DNA of 8,026 nt from a virus. Its lineage: Duplodnaviria; Heunggongvirae; Uroviricota; Caudoviricetes. The DNA is taken from the IMG/VR virus record IMGVR_UViG_2654587792_000015; one strand, given 5' to 3'. Below are positions 1 through 8,026 of the stretch, piece by piece (position 1 is the stretch's first letter; each line of letters starts with the position of its first letter). Both the position numbers and the translations under genes were made by a program. The notes beneath the pieces are model-generated. The model did no database searches, was not told where the DNA came from, and saw nothing but the letters and a program-made list of their open reading frames with translations.

Positions 1-95
1 CCGATAAACCGGGTCGGCGAACTGCTCCCCTGGCGCGTAGCACTGCCGACTGAATAACACATCCCCGTCAATACGGTTCTTGCTGCACGCTTACG

Positions 96-1571
96 TTGAT
101 CATGAATGGGCAGCATACCGAGTTTAATCGCCTTCTCGGGCTCGGTAATGAATTACTTCAGCAGCGACAGGGGCTGGTGAATGTACCGTTACGGCTACCA
201 CAGGCAACCCTGGATGATAAACAGCAGACTGCACTGAATAACAGCGAGCGCGAACTGGCTCTGTCCCGCCTGAAGGGGGAAGCCCGTGAGCGTGCCCGCT
301 TGGGTTATGCTGCGGATGATCTCGGCTTTGTGGGAGAGGCGTATCAGACAGCCAGACAGAATTATATCAATAACTCACTGGATGCCTGGCGAAATAACCA
401 GGCAAATAAACCCAAAGCGCATAAAAAGACCGAAGCGGAAAAAACAGAAGATATTTATAAACGGCTGATTAAACAGCAAAAAGAACAAATAGCACTGGCA
501 GGGCAGAATACTGAACTGGCTAAGATGAAATATCAGGTCAGTCAGGGCGAATTATCAACCCTGTCAGAAGCGCAGAAAAAAACGCTTTTGCAGAATGCAG
601 CACTCATCGACCAGAAAAAGATTCGTGAGCAGCTTGCTGCGTATGAAAGCAGCCTGGCGGACAGTAATGCCAGTACCCGGGCGTCTAACGACGCGCAGTT
701 ACTGGGATATGGTGAAGGCTCACGGATGCGTGAACGACTCCAGGAAATGTGGAGTATCCGGCATGAGTTTGAGCAGAAAAATAACGAGCTGCTGAGACAG
801 TATCAGGCCGGAGAAATTGAAGAAGCCCTGTGGAAACAGGAGAAAGAACTGAATAAAAAATATCTGGAAGAGCGTCTCAGCGATCAGCAGGATTATTATG
901 CAAAGGCCGATGCTTTACGTAATAACTGGAATGCAGGACTCCAGGAGGGGCTGACCAACTGGGCAGACAGTGCCACCGATTATGCTTCGCAGGCGGCAGA
1001 TGCTGTCGTTTCCACTATGGACGGACTGGTATCAAATATTTCCGATGCACTGGCCGGAAATGTTGTGGACTGGAGAAACTGGGGGAGTTCAATTCTCCAG
1101 GAAGTTTCAAAAATTCTGATGAATGCGGCCATTGTTAACGGACTGAAGTCACTCTCCGGTGCCGGAGGGTGGCTTGGTACGGTCGGCGGATGGATTTCGG
1201 GGGCGGTGGCAAACGCAAAAGGTGGTGTTTACACATCAGCAAATCTGAGTGCTTACAGTAACACTATTGTGGATACACCGACGTATTTTGCTTTTGCGAA
1301 AGGTGCCGGGCTGATGGGCGAGGCCGGGCCTGAAGCTATCATGCCACTGACACGGGCAGCGGACGGCTCTCTTGGGGTCAGAGCCATTGGCAATGTGAAT
1401 AGTGGCGGGGGGGTTGTTTATTCTCCCGTGTATCACATCAGCATTCAGAATCAAGGGAGCAATGGCGAGATAGATGCGCGCTCAGCCAGGGGACTGGTGG
1501 ATCTGATCGACAGCAGGGTTGTGTCAATTATGCAGTCATCGCGTCGGGATGGAGGATTGTACAGTGCCTGA
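96..1571 (+). CDS. H: Phage tail tape measure protein (lambda gpH-like), C-terminal ~490 codons only; probably a 5'-truncated remnant rather than a complete gene
   Basis: Open frame 96-1571 (TTG at 96, first ATG at 102), ending ...RRDGGLYSA then TGA at 1569-1571. The Gly-rich, hydrophobic C-terminal segment (NWNAGLQEGLTNWADSATDYASQ...ILMNAAIVNGL...) and the Q/E/K/R-rich coiled-coil-like region before it match the C-terminal architecture of lambdoid tape measure proteins, and the ORF sits immediately upstream of M-L-K-I-J. No Shine-Dalgarno motif precedes 96 or 102, and all three forward frames contain stops within nt 1-57 (frame 0 TGA 51-53, frame 1 TAA 55-57, frame 2 TAA 5-7 and TAG 38-40). 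Confidence 0.75.
   Translation: MIMNGQHTEFNRLLGLGNELLQQRQGLVNVPLRLPQATLDDKQQTALNNSERELALSRLKGEARERARLGYAADDLGFVGEAYQTARQNYINNSLDAWRNNQANKPKAHKKTEAEKTEDIYKRLIKQQKEQIALAGQNTELAKMKYQVSQGELSTLSEAQKKTLLQNAALIDQKKIREQLAAYESSLADSNASTRASNDAQLLGYGEGSRMRERLQEMWSIRHEFEQKNNELLRQYQAGEIEEALWKQEKELNKKYLEERLSDQQDYYAKADALRNNWNAGLQEGLTNWADSATDYASQAADAVVSTMDGLVSNISDALAGNVVDWRNWGSSILQEVSKILMNAAIVNGLKSLSGAGGWLGTVGGWISGAVANAKGGVYTSANLSAYSNTIVDTPTYFAFAKGAGLMGEAGPEAIMPLTRAADGSLGVRAIGNVNSGGGVVYSPVYHISIQNQGSNGEIDARSARGLVDLIDSRVVSIMQSSRRDGGLYSA
1549..1571 (+). promoter_or_regulatory. H/M translational-coupling junction: Shine-Dalgarno GGAGG plus overlapping stop and start
   Basis: GGAGG at 1551-1555, GTG 1564-1566, H stop TGA 1569-1571 (GTGCCTGA). 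Confidence 0.5.
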
Positions 1572-1905
1572 GCCTGAAGTTTTTAACTGGATCCCCCGTG
1601 AGGGGATGGAGACGACACGAAAGCCATCAGTTATTACGGTAAAGTTTGGTGACGGATATGAACAGCGACGGGCTGGTGGTCTGAATGCGGATCTGAAAAC
1701 GTTTAAACCGGTATTTCGTGTCACAGATGAATATTCCCGTGCCGCGCTGGACAGTTTTTTATCCCGTCATGCCGGGATTCGTGCTTTTTTGTGGCGTCCG
1801 CCAAAACACAACAGGACTGTCCGGGTTGTCTGCAGGGAGTGGAGCATTTCGGATAATGCCATGTATACCGATTTTAACTGTACCTTTGAAGAGGTCACTC
1901 ACTGA
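1564..1905 (+). CDS. M: Phage minor tail protein M (lambda gpM-like)
   Basis: Frame-1 ORF containing ...VKFGDGYEQRRAGGLNADLKT...FLWRPP..., which I recognise as gpM-like. Preferred start is GTG 1564, preceded by GGAGG at 1551-1555 (8-nt spacer) and overlapping the H stop (GTGCCTGA); an alternative in-frame ATG at 1549 has no Shine-Dalgarno motif. The stop TGA at 1903-1905 overlaps the L start ATG at 1905-1907. Confidence 0.85.
   Translation: MPEPEVFNWIPREGMETTRKPSVITVKFGDGYEQRRAGGLNADLKTFKPVFRVTDEYSRAALDSFLSRHAGIRAFLWRPPKHNRTVRVVCREWSISDNAMYTDFNCTFEEVTH
1672..1679 (+). other. Chi octamer 5'-GCTGGTGG-3' (RecBCD recombination hotspot motif) inside M
   Basis: Exact match GCTGGTGG at 1672-1679 on the + strand. 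A single occurrence is near chance expectation, so functional significance is uncertain. Confidence 0.4.
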
Positions 1906-2604
1906 TGCAGGATATACAGCAGGAAACACTCAATGAGTGCACTAAAACGGAGCAATCCGCGCAGCATCGTGCTCTGGGAAATCGACCTGACAGAGGTCGG
2001 CGGAGAACGTTATTTCTTCTGTAATGAGCAGAACGAAAAAGGTGAACCAGTCACCTGGCAGGGGCGACAGTATCAGCCCTATCCCATTCAGGGAAGCGGA
2101 TTTGAAATGAATGGCAAAGGCACCAGTACGCGCCCCACGCTGACGGTTTCTAACCTGTACGGTATGGTCACCGGGATGGCGGAAGACATGCAGAGTCTGG
2201 TCGGCGGAACGGTGGTCAGGCGTAAGGTTTACGCCCGTTTTCTGGATGCGGTGAACTTCGTCAACGGAAACAGTGACGCCGATCCGGAGCAGGAGGTGAT
2301 CAGCCGCTGGCGCATCGAGCAGTGCAGCGAACTGAGCGCGGTCAGTGCCTCCTTTGTACTGTCCACGCCGACGGAAACGGACGGCGCCGTTTTTCCGGGC
2401 CGCATCATGCTGGCCAACACCTGCACCTGGACCTATCGCGGTGACGAGTGCGGTTATCACGGTCCGGCGGTCGCGGATGAATATGACCAGCCGACGTCCG
2501 ATATCACGAAGGATAAATGCAGCAAATGCCTGAGCGGCTGTAAGTTCCGCAATAACGTCGGCAACTTTGGCGGCTTCCTTTCCATTAACAAACTTTCGCA
2601 GTAA
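1905..2604 (+). pseudogene. L: Phage minor tail protein L (lambda gpL-like), reading frame disrupted by an apparent 1-nt insertion near 1959-1962
   Basis: ATG 1905 (coupled to the M stop) opens frame 0: MQDIQQETLNECTKTEQSA..., which hits TAA at 2022-2024 after 39 codons. Homology continues in the +1 frame from 1963 (SIVLWEIDLTEVGGERYFFCNEQNEKGEPVTWQGRQYQPYPIQ...) to TAA at 2602-2604; the six-frame track shows only the +1 piece (1933-2604). Joining the two gives 19 + 213 = 232 aa, the length I recall for lambda gpL. Confidence 0.8.
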
Positions 2605-2609
2605 ATCCC

Positions 2610-3353
2610 ATGACACAGACAGAATCAGCGATTCTGGCGCACGCCCGGCGATGTGCGCCAGCGGAGTCGTGCGGCTTCGTGGTAAGAACGCCGGAGGGGG
2701 AAAGATATTTCCCCTGCGTGAATATCTCCGGTGAGCCGGAGGCGTATTTCCGTATGTCGCCGGAAGACTGGCTGCAGGCAGAAATGCAGGGTGAGATTGT
2801 GGCGCTGGTCCACAGCCACCCCGGTGGTCTGCCCTGGCTGAGTGAGGCCGACCGGCGGCTGCAGGTGCAGAGTGATTTGCCGTGGTGGCTGGTCTGCCGG
2901 GGGACGATTCATAAGTTCCGCTGTGTGCCGCATCTCACCGGGCGGCGCTTTGAGCACGGTGTGACGGACTGTTACACACTGTTCCGGGATGCTTATCATC
3001 TGGCGGGGATTGAGATGCCGGACTTTCATCGTGAGGATGACTGGTGGCGTAACGGCCAGAATCTCTATCTGGATAATCTGGAGGCGACGGGGCTGTATCA
3101 GGTGCCGTTGTCAGCGGCACAGCCGGGCGATGTGCTGCTGTGCTGTTTTGGTTCATCGGTGCCGAATCATGCCGCTATTTACTGCGGCGACGGCGAGCTG
3201 CTGCACCATATTCCTGAACAACTGAGCAAACGAGAGAGGTATACCGACAAATGGCAGCGACGCACACACTCCCTCTGGCGTCACCGGGCATGGCACGCAT
3301 CTGCCTTTACGGGGATTTGCAACGATTTGGCCGCCGCATCGACCTTCGTGTGA
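2610..3353 (+). CDS. K: Phage tail tip assembly protein K (lambda gpK-like), with an N-terminal MPN/JAMM-like motif and a C-terminal NlpC/P60-like region
   Basis: Uninterrupted 247-codon ORF starting 5 nt after the L stop. A JAMM-type motif H-x-H-x7-S-x2-D is present (HSHPGGLPWLSEAD, about nt 2811-2852), and candidate NlpC/P60 Cys and His lie in VTDCYTLF and PNHAAIY. The 3' end overlaps the I start by 103 nt in a different frame, as in lambda. Confidence 0.9.
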   Translation: MTQTESAILAHARRCAPAESCGFVVRTPEGERYFPCVNISGEPEAYFRMSPEDWLQAEMQGEIVALVHSHPGGLPWLSEADRRLQVQSDLPWWLVCRGTIHKFRCVPHLTGRRFEHGVTDCYTLFRDAYHLAGIEMPDFHREDDWWRNGQNLYLDNLEATGLYQVPLSAAQPGDVLLCCFGSSVPNHAAIYCGDGELLHHIPEQLSKRERYTDKWQRRTHSLWRHRAWHASAFTGICNDLAAASTFV

Positions 3354-3899
3354 AAACGGGGGCCGAAGCCATCCGGGCACTGGCCACACAGATCCCGGCG
3401 TTTCGTCAGAAACTGAACGAGGGCTGGTATCAGGTGCGCATTGCCGGGCGTGATGCAGGCGAAAACGAATTATCAGCCCGTCTTAATGAGCCGCTGAAAA
3501 ATGGTGCCGTGATCCACATCGTACCGCGTCTGGCGGGAGCAAAAAGTGGCGGTGTGTTTCAGGCGGTGCTGGGGGCGGCGCTGATTGCAGTGGCATGGTG
3601 GAACCCTGCAGGCTGGCTGGGAGCCGCGGCTGTATCGGGCATGTATGCGGCAGGGGCCAGTATGATCCTGGGCGGAGTGGCGCAGATGCTGGCACCGAAA
3701 GCCAGAACGCCCACGTACACACACAACAGATAACGGCAAACAGAACACCTATTTCTCCTCACTGGATAACATGGTTGCCCAGGGCAATGTTCTGCCTGTT
3801 CTGTACGGTGAAATGCGCGTGGGGTCACGGGTGGCTTCTCAGGAGATCAGCACGGCAGACGAAGGGGACGGTGGTCAGGTTGTGGTGATTGGTCGCTGA
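3251..3899 (+). pseudogene. I: Phage tail tip assembly protein I (lambda gpI-like), reading frame disrupted by an apparent 1-nt insertion near 3708-3713
   Basis: ATG 3251 (GAGAGAGG upstream, inside the K 3' end) opens frame 2: MAATHTLPLASPGMARICLYGDLQRFGRRIDLRVKTGAEAIRALATQ..., which terminates at TAA 3731-3733 (...KARTPTYTHNR). The conserved gpI-like C-terminus (...TTDNGKQNTYFSSLDNMVAQGNVLPVLYGEMRVGSRVASQEISTADEGDGGQVVVIGR) is in the +1 frame (frame 0) and ends at TGA 3897-3899, just before the J ribosome-binding site. The switch point is at or near the CCC run 3710-3712. Confidence 0.75.
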
Positions 3900-3917
3900 T
3901 GCAAAATGTTTTATGTG

Positions 3918-3937
3918 AAACCGCCTCAGGGCGGTTT
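3918..3937 (+). promoter_or_regulatory. Intergenic hairpin between I and J; possible weak terminator, attenuator or mRNA-stability element
   Basis: AAACCGCC (3918-3925), loop TCAG (3926-3929), GGCGGTTT (3930-3937), followed by TGTCGTTT. It lies between the I stop (3897-3899) and the J ribosome-binding site (3948-3951). Confidence 0.3.
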
Positions 3938-3959
3938 TGTCGTTTATGGAGCGTGAGGA

Positions 3960-6900
3960 ATGGGTAAAGGCAGCAGTAAGGGGCATACCCCGCGCGAAGC
4001 GAAGGACAACCTGAAGTCCACGCAGCTGCTGAGTGTGATCGATGCCATCAGCGAAGGGCCGATAGAAGGTCCGGTGGATGGATTAAAAAGCGTGCTGCTG
4101 AACAGTACGCCGGTGCTGGACACTGAGGAGAATACCAACATCTCCGGCGTCACGGTGGTGTTCCGGGCAGGTGAGCAGGAGCAGACACCGCCGGAGGGGT
4201 TTGAATCCTCCGGCTCCGAGACGGTGCTGGGTACGGAAGTGAAATATGACACGCCGATCACCCGGACCATCACGTCGGCAAACATCGACCGTCTGCGCTT
4301 TACCTTCGGTGTGCAGGCACTGGTGGAAACCACCTCAAAGGGGGACAGGAATCCGTCGGAAGTCCGCCTGCTGGTTCAGATACAGCGTAACGGTGGCTGG
4401 GTGACGGAAAAAGACATCACCATTAAGGGCAAAACCACCTCGCAGTATCTGGCCTCGGTGGTGGTGGATAACCTGCCGCCGCGCCCGTTTAATATCCGGA
4501 TGCGCAGGATGACGCCGGACAGCACCACAGACCAGCTGCAGAACAAAACGCTCTGGTCGTCATACACCGAAATCATCGATGTGAAACAGGGCTACCCGAA
4601 CACGGCACTGGTCGGCGTACAGGTGGACTCGGAGCAGTTCGGCAGCCAGCAGGTGAGCCGTAATTATCATCTGCGCGGACGCATTCTGCAGGTGCCGTCG
4701 AACTACAACCCGCAAAAACGGCACATACAGCGGTATCTGGGACGGAACGTTAAAACCGGCATACAGCAACAACCCGGCCTGGTGTCTGTGGGATATGCTG
4801 ACCCACCCGCGCTACGGCATGGGGAAACGTCTTGGTGCGGCGGATGTGGATAAATGGGCGCTGTATGTCATCGGCCAGTACTGCGACCAGTCGGTGCCGG
4901 ACGGCTTTGGCGGCACGGAGCCGCGCATCACCTGTAATGCGTACCTGACCACACAGCGCAAGGCGTGGGATGTGCTCAGTGATTTCTGCTCGGCGATGCG
5001 CTGTATGCCGGTATGGAACGGGCAGACGCTGACGTTCGTGCAGGACCGACCGTCGGATAAGGTGTGGACCTATAACCGCAGTAATGTGGTGATGCCGGAT
5101 GATGGCGCGCCGTTCCGCTACAGCTTCAGCGCCCTGAAAGACCGCCATAATGCCGTTGAGGTGAACTGGATTGACCCGAATAACGGCTGGGAGACGGCGA
5201 CAGAGCTTGTTGAAGATACGCAGGCCATTGCCCGTTACGGTCGTAACGTCACGAAGATGGATGCCTTTGGCTGTACCAGCCGGGGGCAGGCGCACCGCGC
5301 CGGGCTGTGGCTGATTAAAACAGAACTGCTGGAAACGCAGACCGTGGACTTCAGCGTGGGTGCAGAAGGGCTTCGCCATGTACCGGGCGATGTCATTGAA
5401 ATCTGTGATGATGACTATGCCGGTATCAGCACCGGCGGGCGCGTGCTGGCGGTGAACAGCCAGACCCGGACGCTGACGCTCGACCGTGAAATCACGCTGC
5501 CATCCTCCGGTACCACGCTGATAAGCCTGGTTGACGGAAGTGGCAATCCGGTCAGCGTGGAGGTTCAGTCCGTCACCGACGGCGTGAAGGTAAAAGTGAG
5601 CCGTGTTCCTGACGGTGTTGCTGAATACAGCGTGTGGGGGCTGAAGCTGCCGACGCTGCGCCAGCGCCTGTTCCGCTGCGTGAGTATCCGTGAGAACGAC
5701 GACGGCACGTATGCCATCACCGCCGTGCAGCATGTACCGGAAAAAGAAGCCATCGTGGATAACGGGGCGCACTTTGACGGCGACCAGAGCGGCACGGTGA
5801 ATGGTGTCACGCCGCCAGCGGTGCAGCACCTGACCGCAGAAGTCACCGCAGACAGTGGGGAATATCAGGTGCTGGCGCGCTGGGACACGCCGAAGGTGGT
5901 GAAGGGCGTGAGCTTCCTGCTTCGCCTGACCGTGGCAGCGGACGATGGCAGTGAGCGGCTGGTCAGCACGGCCAGGACGACGGAAACTACATACCGCTTC
6001 ACGCAACTGGCGCTGGGAAATTACAGGCTGACAGTCCGGGCGGTAAATGCGTGGGGACAGCAGGGCGATCCGGCATCGGTATCGTTCCGGATTGCCGCAC
6101 CGGCAGCACCGTCGCGGATTGAGCTGACGCCGGGCTATTTTCAGATAACCGCCACGCCGCATTTTGCGGTTTATGATCCGACGGTACAGTTTGAGTTCTG
6201 GTTCTCGGAAAAACGGATTGCTGATATCAGGCAGGTTGAAACCAGCGCGCGTTATCTTGGTACGGCGCTGTACTGGATAGCCGCCAGTATCAATATCAAA
6301 CCGGGCCATGATTATTATTTTTACGTTCGCAGTGTGAACACCGTTGGCAAATCGGCATTCGTGGAGGCTGTCGGTCGGGCGAGCGATGATGCGGAAGGTT
6401 ACCTGGATTTTTTCAAAGGAGAAATCGGGAAAACACATCTGGCCCAGGAGCTGTGGACGCAGATTGATAACGGTCAGCTTGCGCCGGACCTGGCTGAAAT
6501 CAGGACGTCCATTACGAATGTCAGCAATGAAATCACGCAGACCGTCAATAAAAAACTGGAAGACCAGAGTGCGGCAATCCAGCAGATACAGAAAGTTCAG
6601 GTTGATACAAATAATAACCTGAACAGCATGTGGGCCGTGAAACTGCAGCAGATGCAGGACGGACGCCTTTATATTGCGGGTATCGGAGCCGGTATTGAGA
6701 ATACGCCAGCAGGTATGCAGAGTCAGGTGCTTCTGGCTGCTGACCGGATTGCGATGATTAATCCTGCGAATGGCAACACAAAGCCGATGTTTGTTGGTCA
6801 GGGCGATCAGATATTCATGAACGAAGTGTTCCTGAAATACCTGACGGCTCCCACCATTACCAGCGGCGGTAATCCTCCGGCATTTTCCCTGACACCGGAC

Positions 6901-7440
6901 GGGCGGCTGACGGCGAAAAATGCCGATATCAGCGGTAACGTGAATGCGAACTCCGGGACGCTCAACAACGTCACGATTAACGAAAACTGTCGGGTTCTGG
7001 GAAAACTGTCCGCCAACCAGATTGAAGGCGATCTCGTTAAAACAGTGGGCAAAGCTTTCCCCCGGGACTCCCGTGCACCGGAGCGGTGGCCATCAGGGAC
7101 CATTACCGTCAGGGTTTATGACGATCAGCCGTTTGACCGGCAAATTGTTATTCCGGCGGTGGCATTCAGTGGCGCTAAGCATGAGAGAGAGCATACTGAT
7201 ATTTACTCCTCATGCCGTCTGATAGTGCGGAAAAACGGTGCTGAAATTTATAACCGTACCGCGCTGGATAATACGCTGATTTACAGTGGTGTTATTGATA
7301 TGCCTGCCGGTCACGGTCACATGACGCTGGAGTTTTCGGTGTCAGCATGGCTGGTAAATAACTGGTATCCCACAGCAAGTATCAGCGATTTGCTGGTTGT
7401 GGTGATGAAGAAAGCCACCGCAGGCATCAGTATCAGCTGA
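3960..7440 (+). pseudogene. J: Phage host-specificity / central tail fibre protein J (lambda gpJ-like), reading frame disrupted by an apparent 1-nt insertion at the A5 run 4714-4718
   Basis: ATG 3960 with GGAG at 3948-3951 (8-nt spacer). Frame 0 reads MGKGSSKGHTPREAKDNLKSTQLLSVIDAISEGPIEGPVDGLKSVLLNSTPVLD..., which I recognise as the gpJ N-terminus. After ...SNYNPQ (about 4715) frame 0 degenerates and stops at 4851-4853, while the gpJ-like sequence continues in the +1 frame from about 4720 ([39 protein letters not shown]...) uninterrupted to TGA 7438-7440. Removing one nucleotide in 4713-4719 yields a single ORF of about 1159 codons. Confidence 0.85.
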
Positions 7441-7458
7441 ATTTTATAACCCATATAC

Positions 7459-7483
7459 GGGCGCCAGAAATGGCGCCTTTTTT
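7459..7483 (+). terminator. Rho-independent terminator downstream of J
   Basis: Stem GGCGCC (7460-7465), loop AGAAAT (7466-7471), stem GGCGCC (7472-7477), followed directly by TTTTTT (7478-7483). It lies 19 nt after the J stop and before the lom-like ribosome-binding site. Confidence 0.65.
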
Positions 7484-7507
7484 ATTGCAGAAAAGCGAGA
7501 GGTAATT

Positions 7508-8026
7508 ATGCGTAAAGTTTGTGCAGCCATTTTGTCCGCAGCCATCTGTCTGTCCGTATCCGGTGCGCCTGCATGGGCGTCTGAACATCAGTCCACACTG
7601 AGCGCGGGGTATCTTCATGCCCGTACGAACGCTCCCGGCAGCGATAATCTGAACGGGATTAACGTGAAATACCGTTATGAGTTTACGGACGCGCTGGGGC
7701 TGATTACGTCCTTCAGTTATGCCAATGCTGAGGATGAGCAAAAAACGCACTACAGCGATACCCGCTGGCATGAAGATTCCGTGCGTAACCGCTGGTTCAG
7801 CGTGATGGCGGGGCCGTCTGTGCGCGTGAATGAATGGTTCAGCGCGTATGCGATGGTGGGTGTGGCTTACAGCCGTGTGTCGACTTTCTCCGGGGATTAT
7901 CTCCGCGTAACTGACAACAAGGGGAAAACGCACGATGTGCTGACCGGAAGTGATGACGGTCGCCACAGCAACACCTCTCTGGCGTGGGGAGCTGGCGTGC
8001 AGTTTAACCCGACCGAATCCGTGGCC
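7508..8026 (+). CDS. lom: Lom-like outer membrane protein (Ail/Lom/PagC/OmpX family), 5' part; the 3' end lies beyond the window
   Basis: ATG 7508 preceded by GAGAGG (7497-7502). The frame is open to the end of the window (173 codons): MRKVCAAILSAAICLSVSGAPAWA-SEHQ... The N-terminus is a typical signal peptide with an A-x-A cleavage site; GINVKYRYEF and the alternating aromatic/hydrophobic strands are characteristic of the Lom/Ail beta-barrel family. It occupies the position immediately downstream of J, as lom does in lambda. It is absent from the ORF track because no stop occurs within the window. Confidence 0.8.
   Translation, partial: MRKVCAAILSAAICLSVSGAPAWASEHQSTLSAGYLHARTNAPGSDNLNGINVKYRYEFTDALGLITSFSYANAEDEQKTHYSDTRWHEDSVRNRWFSVMAGPSVRVNEWFSAYAMVGVAYSRVSTFSGDYLRVTDNKGKTHDVLTGSDDGRHSNTSLAWGAGVQFNPTESVA

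What the first reader, a model, noticed from the sequence alone, without database searches (positions are those of the whole stretch)
1905..2604. Minor tail protein L gene is split by a +1 frame disruption about 19 codons into the gene
The ATG at 1905 overlaps the M stop (TGATG, 1903-1907) and encodes MQDIQQETLNECTKTEQSA in frame 0, but that frame reaches TAA at 2022-2024 after 39 codons. The rest of the gpL-like protein (SIVLWEIDLTEV... to ...FLSINKLSQ) is in the +1 frame. The two parts sum to 232 aa, the length I recall for lambda gpL, so a single extra base around 1959-1962 (tcc gcg C agc atc) breaks the gene. As written, L cannot be made as a full-length protein unless translation reinitiates at ATG 1933, which would lose the conserved N-terminus.
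Basis: partly seen in the sequence, partly recalled or inferred. Interest (0 to 1): 0.55.

Follow-up and report, generated by a model that had tools for sequence, protein, structure and literature searches.

The report
One extra base breaks prophage gene L
The lambda-type tail gene L in this window is broken by one extra base, but so are genes I and J, the sequence is a short contig of a draft E. coli assembly from a prophage already cut by an insertion sequence, and the break is either an assembly error or ordinary gene decay.

Summary
ATG 1905 opens 19 gpL codons, then the frame runs to TAA 2022-2024, and the rest of L is in the +1 frame (1933-2604). Every intact homologue is one base shorter at this spot. 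Deleting any one base of 1960-1965 restores a 232-codon L that is near-identical to lambda gpL.

The window is a whole contig (JHTM01000182.1) of a fragmented draft assembly. It starts with 94 nt of ISEc22 inserted in tape-measure gene H. It carries exactly three single-base insertions, in L, I (3713) and J (4720-4724), and no other indels.

A sister contig from the same project has the same IS/H junction, identical flanks, and intact L, I and J. The two differ only within 1963-5988, and the first difference is at the L lesion.

All three lesions, plus a fourth in a related contig, are +1 and lie in hypervariable patches. At L, J and the fourth site the sequence is the exact union of two equal-length natural alleles; the I site is a looser hybrid. 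The L variant occurs nowhere else that I searched. It is not conserved, so it is not programmed.

Best reading: a consensus artefact from co-assembled prophage copies (about 0.55). The main rival is a real pseudogene (about 0.38). Only the reads can decide. Either way it is ordinary.

The parts
1..94 (+). Right end of ISEc22 (IS66 family), ending in the terminal ...CGCTTAC and inserted in tape-measure gene H. The contig breaks inside this repeat.
   Evidence: 100% identical over 94 nt to ISEc22 copies; about 1,700 E. coli records have a best match of at least 99%. The IS terminus directly abuts H sequence at position 95.
95..1571 (+). 3' part of tape-measure gene H, truncated by the IS.
   Evidence: aligns to the C-terminal 489 codons of 1,075-aa tape-measure proteins (PF06120, PF09718).
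1549..1905 (+). Gene M (118 aa), intact.
   Evidence: PF05939; no differences from intact relatives.
1905..2024 (+). L 5' fragment: 19 authentic gpL codons, then 20 out-of-frame codons, then TAA.
1960..1965 (+). Site of the extra base in L (window GCGCAGCATCG; natural alleles GCGCTG-ATCG and GC-CAGCGTGG). It is the first position that differs from the sister contig.
1933..2604 (+). L main ORF in the +1 frame (223 aa). From residue 11 onward it is gpL residues 20-232.
   Evidence: (PF05100).
2610..3353 (+). Gene K (247 aa, JAB/NlpC-P60), intact.
   Evidence: the exact protein is WP_059111265.1. One search lists it on 5 contigs, and read 8 contigs that carry it.
3350..3899 (+). Gene I, broken by an extra A at 3713. 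The frame stops at 3733, and the remainder is ORF 3771-3899.
3960..7440 (+). Gene J, broken by one extra base at 4720-4724 (AAAAACGGCACATAC). It is split into ORFs 3960-4853 (297 aa) and 4795-7440 (881 aa).
1963..5988 (+). Block holding all of the roughly 129 differences from the sister contig JHRS01000262.1 apart from two lom SNPs (7975, 7990) and the ragged contig ends. The flanks 1-1962 and 5989-7974 are identical.
7508..8026 (+). lom (Ail/Lom family), cut off by the contig end.

Best explanation
The split L gene is a non-programmed, non-conserved one-base insertion in a deposited draft contig. It most likely arose when the consensus was built, not in the cell. The source genome probably holds two or more lambdoid prophages whose L-to-J tail modules are about 95-98% identical. 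Reads from those copies were co-assembled from L codon 20 onward, which is where the copies first become alignable. At short hypervariable patches, two equal-length alleles align best with a pair of compensating gaps. If the consensus kept the base rather than the gap in both gap columns, the result would be one base too long. That would explain three things: why L, I and J each gained exactly one base, why the divergence from the sister contig starts exactly at the L lesion, and why the flanks are untouched. Shown: the lesion, its uniqueness, its union composition, its placement, the intact sister contig and the IS in H. Inferred: that co-resident copies exist in this genome and that the assembler's consensus step produced the union.
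For: The window is a whole 8,026-bp contig of draft assembly GCA_001506145.1, bounded by an IS end and by lom, which are both repeats. E. coli genomes carry a median of 2 and up to 13 copies of this module. There are exactly three indels across 7.9 kb, all +1, in L, I and J. After repair no gene has a stop, and substitutions are mostly synonymous. Sister contig JHRS01000262.1 has the same IS/H junction, identical flanks, and intact L (232 aa), I (183 aa) and J (1,159 aa). All differences except two SNPs near the lom end and the contig termini fall in 1963-5988, and the first is at the L lesion. The L site is the column-wise union of GCGCTG-ATCG and GC-CAGCGTGG. The J site is the union of AAAAAC-GCACATAC and AGACGCGGCA-ATAC. 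A fourth lesion, in contig L018, is the union of GACGG-AAGTGG and GACGGGCAG-GG. The I site is a hybrid of two natural families. All sites lie in dense difference patches covering 9-16% of the block (p about 0.0007-0.004 for the three window sites). All four lesions are +1 and none is -1. The truncated L, I and J products each occur on one contig among about 15 billion proteins. Repaired L is also absent from that collection. The L junction is absent from finished E. coli genomes, GTDB, IMG/VR and metagenomes. [quoted passage not shown]
Against: The J-site variant recurs, with identical base choices, in two different contigs of another assembly from the same project (JHSO01). One has 42 mismatches to the window over 4,095 nt (about 1%) and the other is 6% divergent. 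Inheritance explains that more simply than a repeated artefact. The contig overhangs into the IS are 94 and 96 nt, which is k-1 for odd k. That hints at a de Bruijn assembler, which cannot create sequence absent from the reads. The prophage is already dead (IS in H), so real frameshifts would be tolerated. Two controls did not single out the window. The intact sister contig is equally distant from finished genomes (96.9%). The window's block needs 49 copy-phrases against 51 for the sister and 1-87 for natural controls. The assembly method could not be found. No reads or other contigs of this genome were available.
Confidence: 0.55

Rival explanations
1. The frameshift is a real pseudogene lesion. 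After ISEc22 destroyed the tape-measure gene, the tail module was no longer under selection. Recombination or gene conversion with other resident lambdoid prophages replaced about 4 kb (1963-5988). Exchange end points inside hypervariable patches, where allele families differ by paired compensating indels, left net +1 junctions in L, I and J. Full-length L is then truly not made.
For: There is a genuine IS terminus inside H. The J lesion is shared by three sequence backgrounds in two assemblies, within 129-373-nt exact tracts. L017 is a prophage remnant, and L018 has a second J frameshift. The contig overhangs suggest a de Bruijn assembly. The block is no more mosaic than natural alleles.
Against: Four exchanges would each have to end inside a 3-4-nt interval, and all would have to give +1 rather than -1 (1/16 by chance for direction alone). 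In-register homologous exchange between equal-length alleles preserves length. The L and I variants are private to one contig among about 15 billion proteins and all DNA collections searched. The sister strain, with 0 differences in about 4 kb of flank, has all three genes intact. No in-frame or frameshifted version of these hybrid alleles occurs outside this sequencing project.
Confidence: 0.38
2. The extra bases are plain base-calling or insertion errors of the sequencing platform, unrelated to any paralogous copies.
For: All lesions are single-base insertions in a draft assembly. An unrelated draft (DEC12B, AIHB01000056.1) shows three homopolymer deletions within 32 nt of the same gene. The second L018 lesion is a GG-to-GGG extension.
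Against: The L and I insertions are not in homopolymers. All sites coincide with hypervariable patches. Their sequences are unions of known alleles. The J lesion recurs identically in three contigs. The IS end, H, M and 2 kb of J show no indel at all.
Confidence: 0.05
3. L is expressed despite the split, either by a programmed +1 ribosomal frameshift near codon 19-20 or by initiation at ATG 1933, giving a functional gpL variant.
For: An AGGA lies 8 nt upstream of ATG 1933. The 223-aa ORF retains PF05100 and the C-terminal cysteines.
Against: No homologue shares the arrangement. That covers 79 of 79 panel copies and thousands of finished-genome copies, including the sister contig. By inspection there is no recognisable shift-prone motif or in-frame stop at the site. 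Rfam finds nothing. The AGGA is part of the conserved codons Q-E-T-L-N-E. I and J are broken in the same way, and H is interrupted, so no functional tail could be built anyway.
Confidence: 0.02

Closest known systems
Bacteriophage lambda tail tip protein L (gpL; Pfam PF05100 Phage_tail_L; PDB 8IYK chain L)
   Same: The repaired ORF is 232 aa and aligns end to end with lambda gpL (E = 1.8e-156). It sits in the lambda order H-M-L-K-I-J-lom, with the M stop overlapping the L start.
   Different: As deposited, the ORF is split after codon 19 by one extra base. The first 19 codons follow a non-lambda allele (MQDIQQETLNECTKTEQSA) linked to a non-lambda M gene.
Collapsed-repeat or merged-paralogue consensus errors in draft bacterial assemblies (for example the E. 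coli EC958 454 draft, PMC4134206)
   Same: A short contig bounded by repeats. A cluster of substitutions plus indels relative to a near-identical genome. The lesions are confined to the part of a multi-copy element that is alignable between copies.
   Different: I could not see reads, coverage or the other copies of this genome. One of the lesions (J) recurs in another assembly of the same project.
Frameshifted tail genes of defective lambdoid prophages in E. coli
   Same: An IS insertion in the tape-measure gene plus frameshifts in L, I and J would be a typical decayed tail module.
   Different: There are no deletions, no nonsense codons and no excess of non-synonymous change. A near-clonal sister prophage is intact in all three genes.
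Programmed frameshifting in lambda tail genes (G/GT, -1)
   Same: It occurs in the same tail-gene cluster, and two overlapping frames encode one protein's parts.
   Different: G/GT is a conserved -1 slip at a slippery heptamer (established knowledge). Here the shift would be +1, there is no motif, and there is no conservation in any homologue.

Membership tests
Lambda gpL / Phage_tail_L (PF05100) | Full-length sequence homology to gpL | tested here: met
   repaired ORF 1-232 against 8IYK_L 1-232, E = 1.8e-156. PF05100 on the 223-aa ORF.
Lambda gpL / Phage_tail_L (PF05100) | Position between M and K in an H-M-L-K-I-J tail module | tested here: met
Lambda gpL / Phage_tail_L (PF05100) | One uninterrupted ORF of about 232 codons | tested here: not met
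   stop at 2022-2024 after 39 codons, with the rest in the +1 frame.
Lambda gpL / Phage_tail_L (PF05100) | C-terminal cysteine motif (the Fe-S ligands of gpL, from my own knowledge of the literature) | tested here: met
   the C-terminal cysteine-containing segments (CTWTYRGDECGY and CSKCLSGC) match lambda at every cysteine.
Programmed ribosomal frameshift site | The frame change is conserved among homologues | tested here: not met
   every other copy examined is in a single frame. That covers all 79 panel copies, the sister contig, and the listed best matches in finished genomes (all 120 nt against 121).
Programmed ribosomal frameshift site | Shift-prone motif and/or a stimulatory RNA element | tested here: not met
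   No known +1 motif by inspection of 1950-1975. No Rfam match in the window. No dedicated structure search was run.
Pseudogene of a defective prophage | A disabling lesion relative to intact homologues, with other inactivating lesions in the same element | tested here: met
   IS in H, and +1 lesions in L, I and J.
Pseudogene of a defective prophage | The lesion is reproducible in independent sequence data | tested here: inconclusive
   L and I occur only on this contig. J occurs also in JHSO01 contigs of the same project. Reads were not available.
Collapsed-repeat consensus artefact | Contig bounded by repeats, from a multi-copy element | tested here: met
   The copy number in this particular genome was not testable.
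Collapsed-repeat consensus artefact | The aberrant sequence is explainable as a merge of two real alleles | tested here: met
   exact unions at L, J and the second L018 site, and a hybrid at I.
Collapsed-repeat consensus artefact | Mixed read populations and raised coverage over the affected block | not testable with these tools
   No reads or coverage data were available, and the assembly method was not found.

The most novel reading that the evidence does not exclude
The lesions are real and reveal a recombination hazard. Lambdoid tail-gene allele families differ at short hypervariable patches by paired compensating indels. Exchange between co-resident prophages that ends between the two members of a pair would then create a frameshift. 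This would be an intragenic hybrid incompatibility that disables mosaic tail genes, seen here four times in one strain lineage.
Probability: 0.25. Interest if true: 0.35.

Novelty: already known. Interest (0 to 1): 0.12.

Why it matters
It matters mainly as a caution. A frameshifted prophage gene on a short draft contig should not be read as biology until the reads are checked, and annotation pipelines will call L, I and J pseudogenes here on uncertain grounds. If the lesions are real, they only add three pseudogenes to a prophage that an insertion sequence had already inactivated. The one point of wider interest is the pattern. All four lesions are +1 merges of two natural alleles at hypervariable patches. 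That is either a recognisable signature of merged-paralogue consensus errors, useful for quality control of prophage-rich genomes, or a hint that recombination between diverged alleles can itself generate frameshifts.

Tried and rejected
1. "The window is abnormally distant from all natural alleles." Rejected. The intact sister contig is just as distant from finished genomes (96.9% against 96.5-96.6%).

2. "The block is an abnormally fine-scale chimera." Rejected as a global claim. A longest-match parse gives 49 phrases for the window, 51 for the sister and 1-87 for natural controls.

3. Alternation between L016-like and L017-like sites as proof of chimerism. Rejected. With three sequences every variable site must fall on one branch.

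4. Frequency-weighted local diversity as a placement test. This was weak for the J site (top 21-45%). I replaced it with a dense-patch test, which is post hoc.

5. DEC12B as independent confirmation of the J lesion. Rejected. Its break is three homopolymer deletions elsewhere in the gene.

6. Contigs carrying the identical K protein as donors of the block. Rejected. They are only 95-98% identical at the DNA level.

7. Searches for the project's paper and assembly method by accession and topic found nothing.

I solved this through a homology search.

9. Contig-end comparison to establish the assembler type was only suggestive.

Full report
**1. The observation**

- The M stop and the L start overlap as TGATG at 1903-1907.
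- The ORF from ATG 1905 encodes MQDIQQETLNECTKTEQSA and then runs out of frame to TAA at 2022-2024.
- The +1 frame ORF 1933-2604 (223 aa) carries the rest of gpL.

Aligned with intact L genes from lambda and from E. coli prophages, the window has one extra base. Its placement is ambiguous within 1960-1965. Deleting any one base of 1960-1965 gives a single 232-codon ORF. The repaired protein aligns over residues 1-232 with lambda tail tip protein L (PDB 8IYK chain L, E = 1.8e-156). In a panel of about 100 related loci, all 79 natural copies have 13 nt between the flanking anchors, and the window has 14.

**2. What surrounds it**

A whole-window alignment to close relatives shows exactly three indels in 7.9 kb, all single-base insertions:
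- L, at about 1965;
- I, at 3713 (CCC[A]CGT);
- J, at 4720-4724 (AAAAACGGCACATAC).

After their removal, H, M, L, K, I, J and lom contain no internal stop. Differences from relatives are patchy and mostly third-position synonymous.

Window 1-94 is not phage DNA. It is the terminal 94 nt of ISEc22 (IS66 family). It is 100% identical to ISEc22 copies (about 1,700 records have a best match of at least 99%), and it ends in ...CGCTTAC directly against tape-measure gene H. So the prophage has a genuine IS insertion in H and cannot build a tail whatever the state of L.

**3. Where the window comes from**

An exact-protein look-up shows that the window is the complete contig JHTM01000182.1 (8,026 bp) of NCBI draft assembly GCA_001506145.1. 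It is bounded by two repeats, the IS and lom.
- The truncated L, I and both J products are each on record for one contig only among about 15 billion proteins.
- Three repaired versions of L (S, Q or L at codon 20) are also absent from that collection.

**4. The sister contig**

The IS-truncated H fragment occurs on one other contig, JHRS01000262.1 (8,025 bp, GCA_001265595.1). Its accession is from the same series. Its L (232 aa), I (183 aa) and J (1,159 aa) are all intact.

Base by base, the two contigs are identical over 1-1962 and over 5989-7974. They differ at about 129 columns, all between 1963 and 5988, and the first differing position is the L lesion itself.

**5. Is any lesion seen elsewhere?**

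- **L junction:** absent from 5,426 finished E. coli genomes (best 95.9%, always 120 nt against 121). It is also absent from GTDB representatives, IMG/VR and 241 million metagenome records.
- **I variant:** absent from finished genomes and IMG/VR.
- **J variant:** absent from finished genomes, GTDB and metagenomes. It does occur, extra base included, in two IMG/VR contigs. These are whole contigs of a third assembly of the same series, JHSO01, GCA_001266005.1.
  - L017 has 42 mismatches and no gap against the window over 4.1 kb, with the same 297 + 881 aa split of J.
  - L018 is only 94% identical and has a second +1 in J.
  - The exact tracts shared around the site are 129-373 nt long.
- **DEC12B:** an 881-aa J fragment from the independent DEC12B draft turned out to be a different lesion, three homopolymer deletions within 32 nt.
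- **In-frame J allele:** among 110 close full-length J proteins, 109 read NYNPQTRQY and one (the sister's) reads NYDPEKRTY. None has an in-frame NYNPQKR... allele.

**6. Anatomy of the lesions**

At each site two natural allele families of equal length differ by a dense multi-base patch. A gapped alignment of the two families puts one gap in each.

| Site | Family 1 | Family 2 | Observed |
|---|---|---|---|
| L | GCGCTG-ATCG | GC-CAGCGTGG | GCGCAGCATCG |
| J | AAAAAC-GCACATAC | AGACGCGGCA-ATAC | AAAAACGGCACATAC |
| L018, second lesion | GACGG-AAGTGG | GACGGGCAG-GG | GACGGGAAGTGG |

In each of these cases the observed sequence keeps both "extra" bases.

At the I site the window begins and ends like family GACGCCCACGG...ACAGAT, with a core like family CCCCGTACACAGACAACGG. 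It differs from its nearest natural allele by four changes within 23 nt.

All three window sites fall in dense difference patches, which cover only 9-16% of the block. The chance of that is 0.0007-0.004. This test was chosen after seeing the data, but it gave the same answer at three thresholds. All four lesions are +1 and none is -1.

**7. Interpretation**

A programmed frameshift or a functional restart is effectively excluded. No homologue shares the arrangement, there is no shift motif and no Rfam hit, and I, J and H are also broken.

The choice is between a consensus artefact and a real pseudogene.

For the artefact:
- The union composition, the invariable +1 direction and the placement in patches fit it.
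- The divergence from a near-clonal sister begins exactly where lambda-type and sister-type L genes first become alignable.
- The L and I variants are unique to this contig.
- The behaviour is documented. [quoted passage not shown]
- In-register homologous exchange between equal-length alleles should preserve length, whereas a gapped read alignment need not.

For a real lesion:
- The J variant recurs with identical base choices in three backgrounds and two assemblies.
- The 94- and 96-nt overhangs into the IS equal k-1 for odd k. That suggests a de Bruijn assembler, which cannot invent sequence.
- The prophage is already dead.

Two controls I ran removed arguments I had been inclined to use:
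- The intact sister contig is just as far from any finished genome.
- The window's block is no more finely mosaic than natural alleles.

My estimates are: artefact from merged paralogous copies about 0.55, real pseudogene about 0.38, simple base-calling error about 0.05, and functional expression about 0.02.

**8. Comparison with what is known, and verdict**

The gene is a member of the gpL / Phage_tail_L family by sequence and synteny, but it fails the test of an uninterrupted ORF. Both surviving explanations are well-known kinds of thing. Nothing here would surprise a phage or genome-assembly specialist.

The only mildly interesting residue is the union signature. It could serve as a quality-control flag for prophage-rich draft genomes. 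If the lesions are real, it points to frameshifts generated by recombination between diverged alleles. The reads of this isolate, or a junction-anchored PCR, would settle the matter.

Noticed in passing
window 1-94 (junction at 94/95): The contig starts with the right end of ISEc22 (IS66 family), inserted in tape-measure gene H. The prophage is therefore defective whatever the state of L.
   Followed up: yes
window 3713: Gene I is broken by an extra A (CCC[A]CGT). The nearest natural allele differs by four changes within 23 nt and is otherwise identical over 121 nt.
   Followed up: yes
window 4720-4724: Gene J is broken by one extra base. The same variant occurs in two contigs of another assembly of the same project (JHSO01) and nowhere else that I searched.
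   Followed up: yes
window 5989-7856: This 1.87 kb of J and the J-lom spacer is identical in the window, the sister contig L016 and L017, although the adjacent J sequence differs by 1-3% between them.
   Followed up: no
window 1921-1924: An AGGA lies 8 nt upstream of ATG 1933 and could act as a ribosome-binding site for the 223-aa ORF. It is part of the conserved L codons, so it is probably coincidental.
   Followed up: no
window 2610-3353; L003 (lambda) 1352: K is a 247-aa ORF starting 6 nt after the L stop, both here and in prophage annotations. The lambda reference annotates K from an internal ATG (199 aa), leaving a 148-nt gap after L.
   Followed up: no
L008 5558-7931 (E. coli MLI106K4): A related prophage in a finished genome has a separate ISEc22 insertion between L and K. 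Its transposase is annotated as frameshifted (CCCCC against CCCC near the IS end).
   Followed up: partly
L022 460-515 (E. coli DEC12B, AIHB01000056.1): The J gene of this independent draft has three single-base homopolymer deletions within 32 nt, which looks like a sequencing-error cluster. An IS66-family transposase lies downstream on the same contig.
   Followed up: partly
L018 5397-5403: There is a second +1 lesion in the J gene of JHSO01 contig L018 (GACGGGAAGTGG). It is also an exact union of two natural allele families.
   Followed up: yes
window 7975, 7990 and 7976-8026: The only differences from the sister contig outside the block are two SNPs in lom near the contig end. The last 51 nt match the L018-type lom allele.
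   Followed up: no
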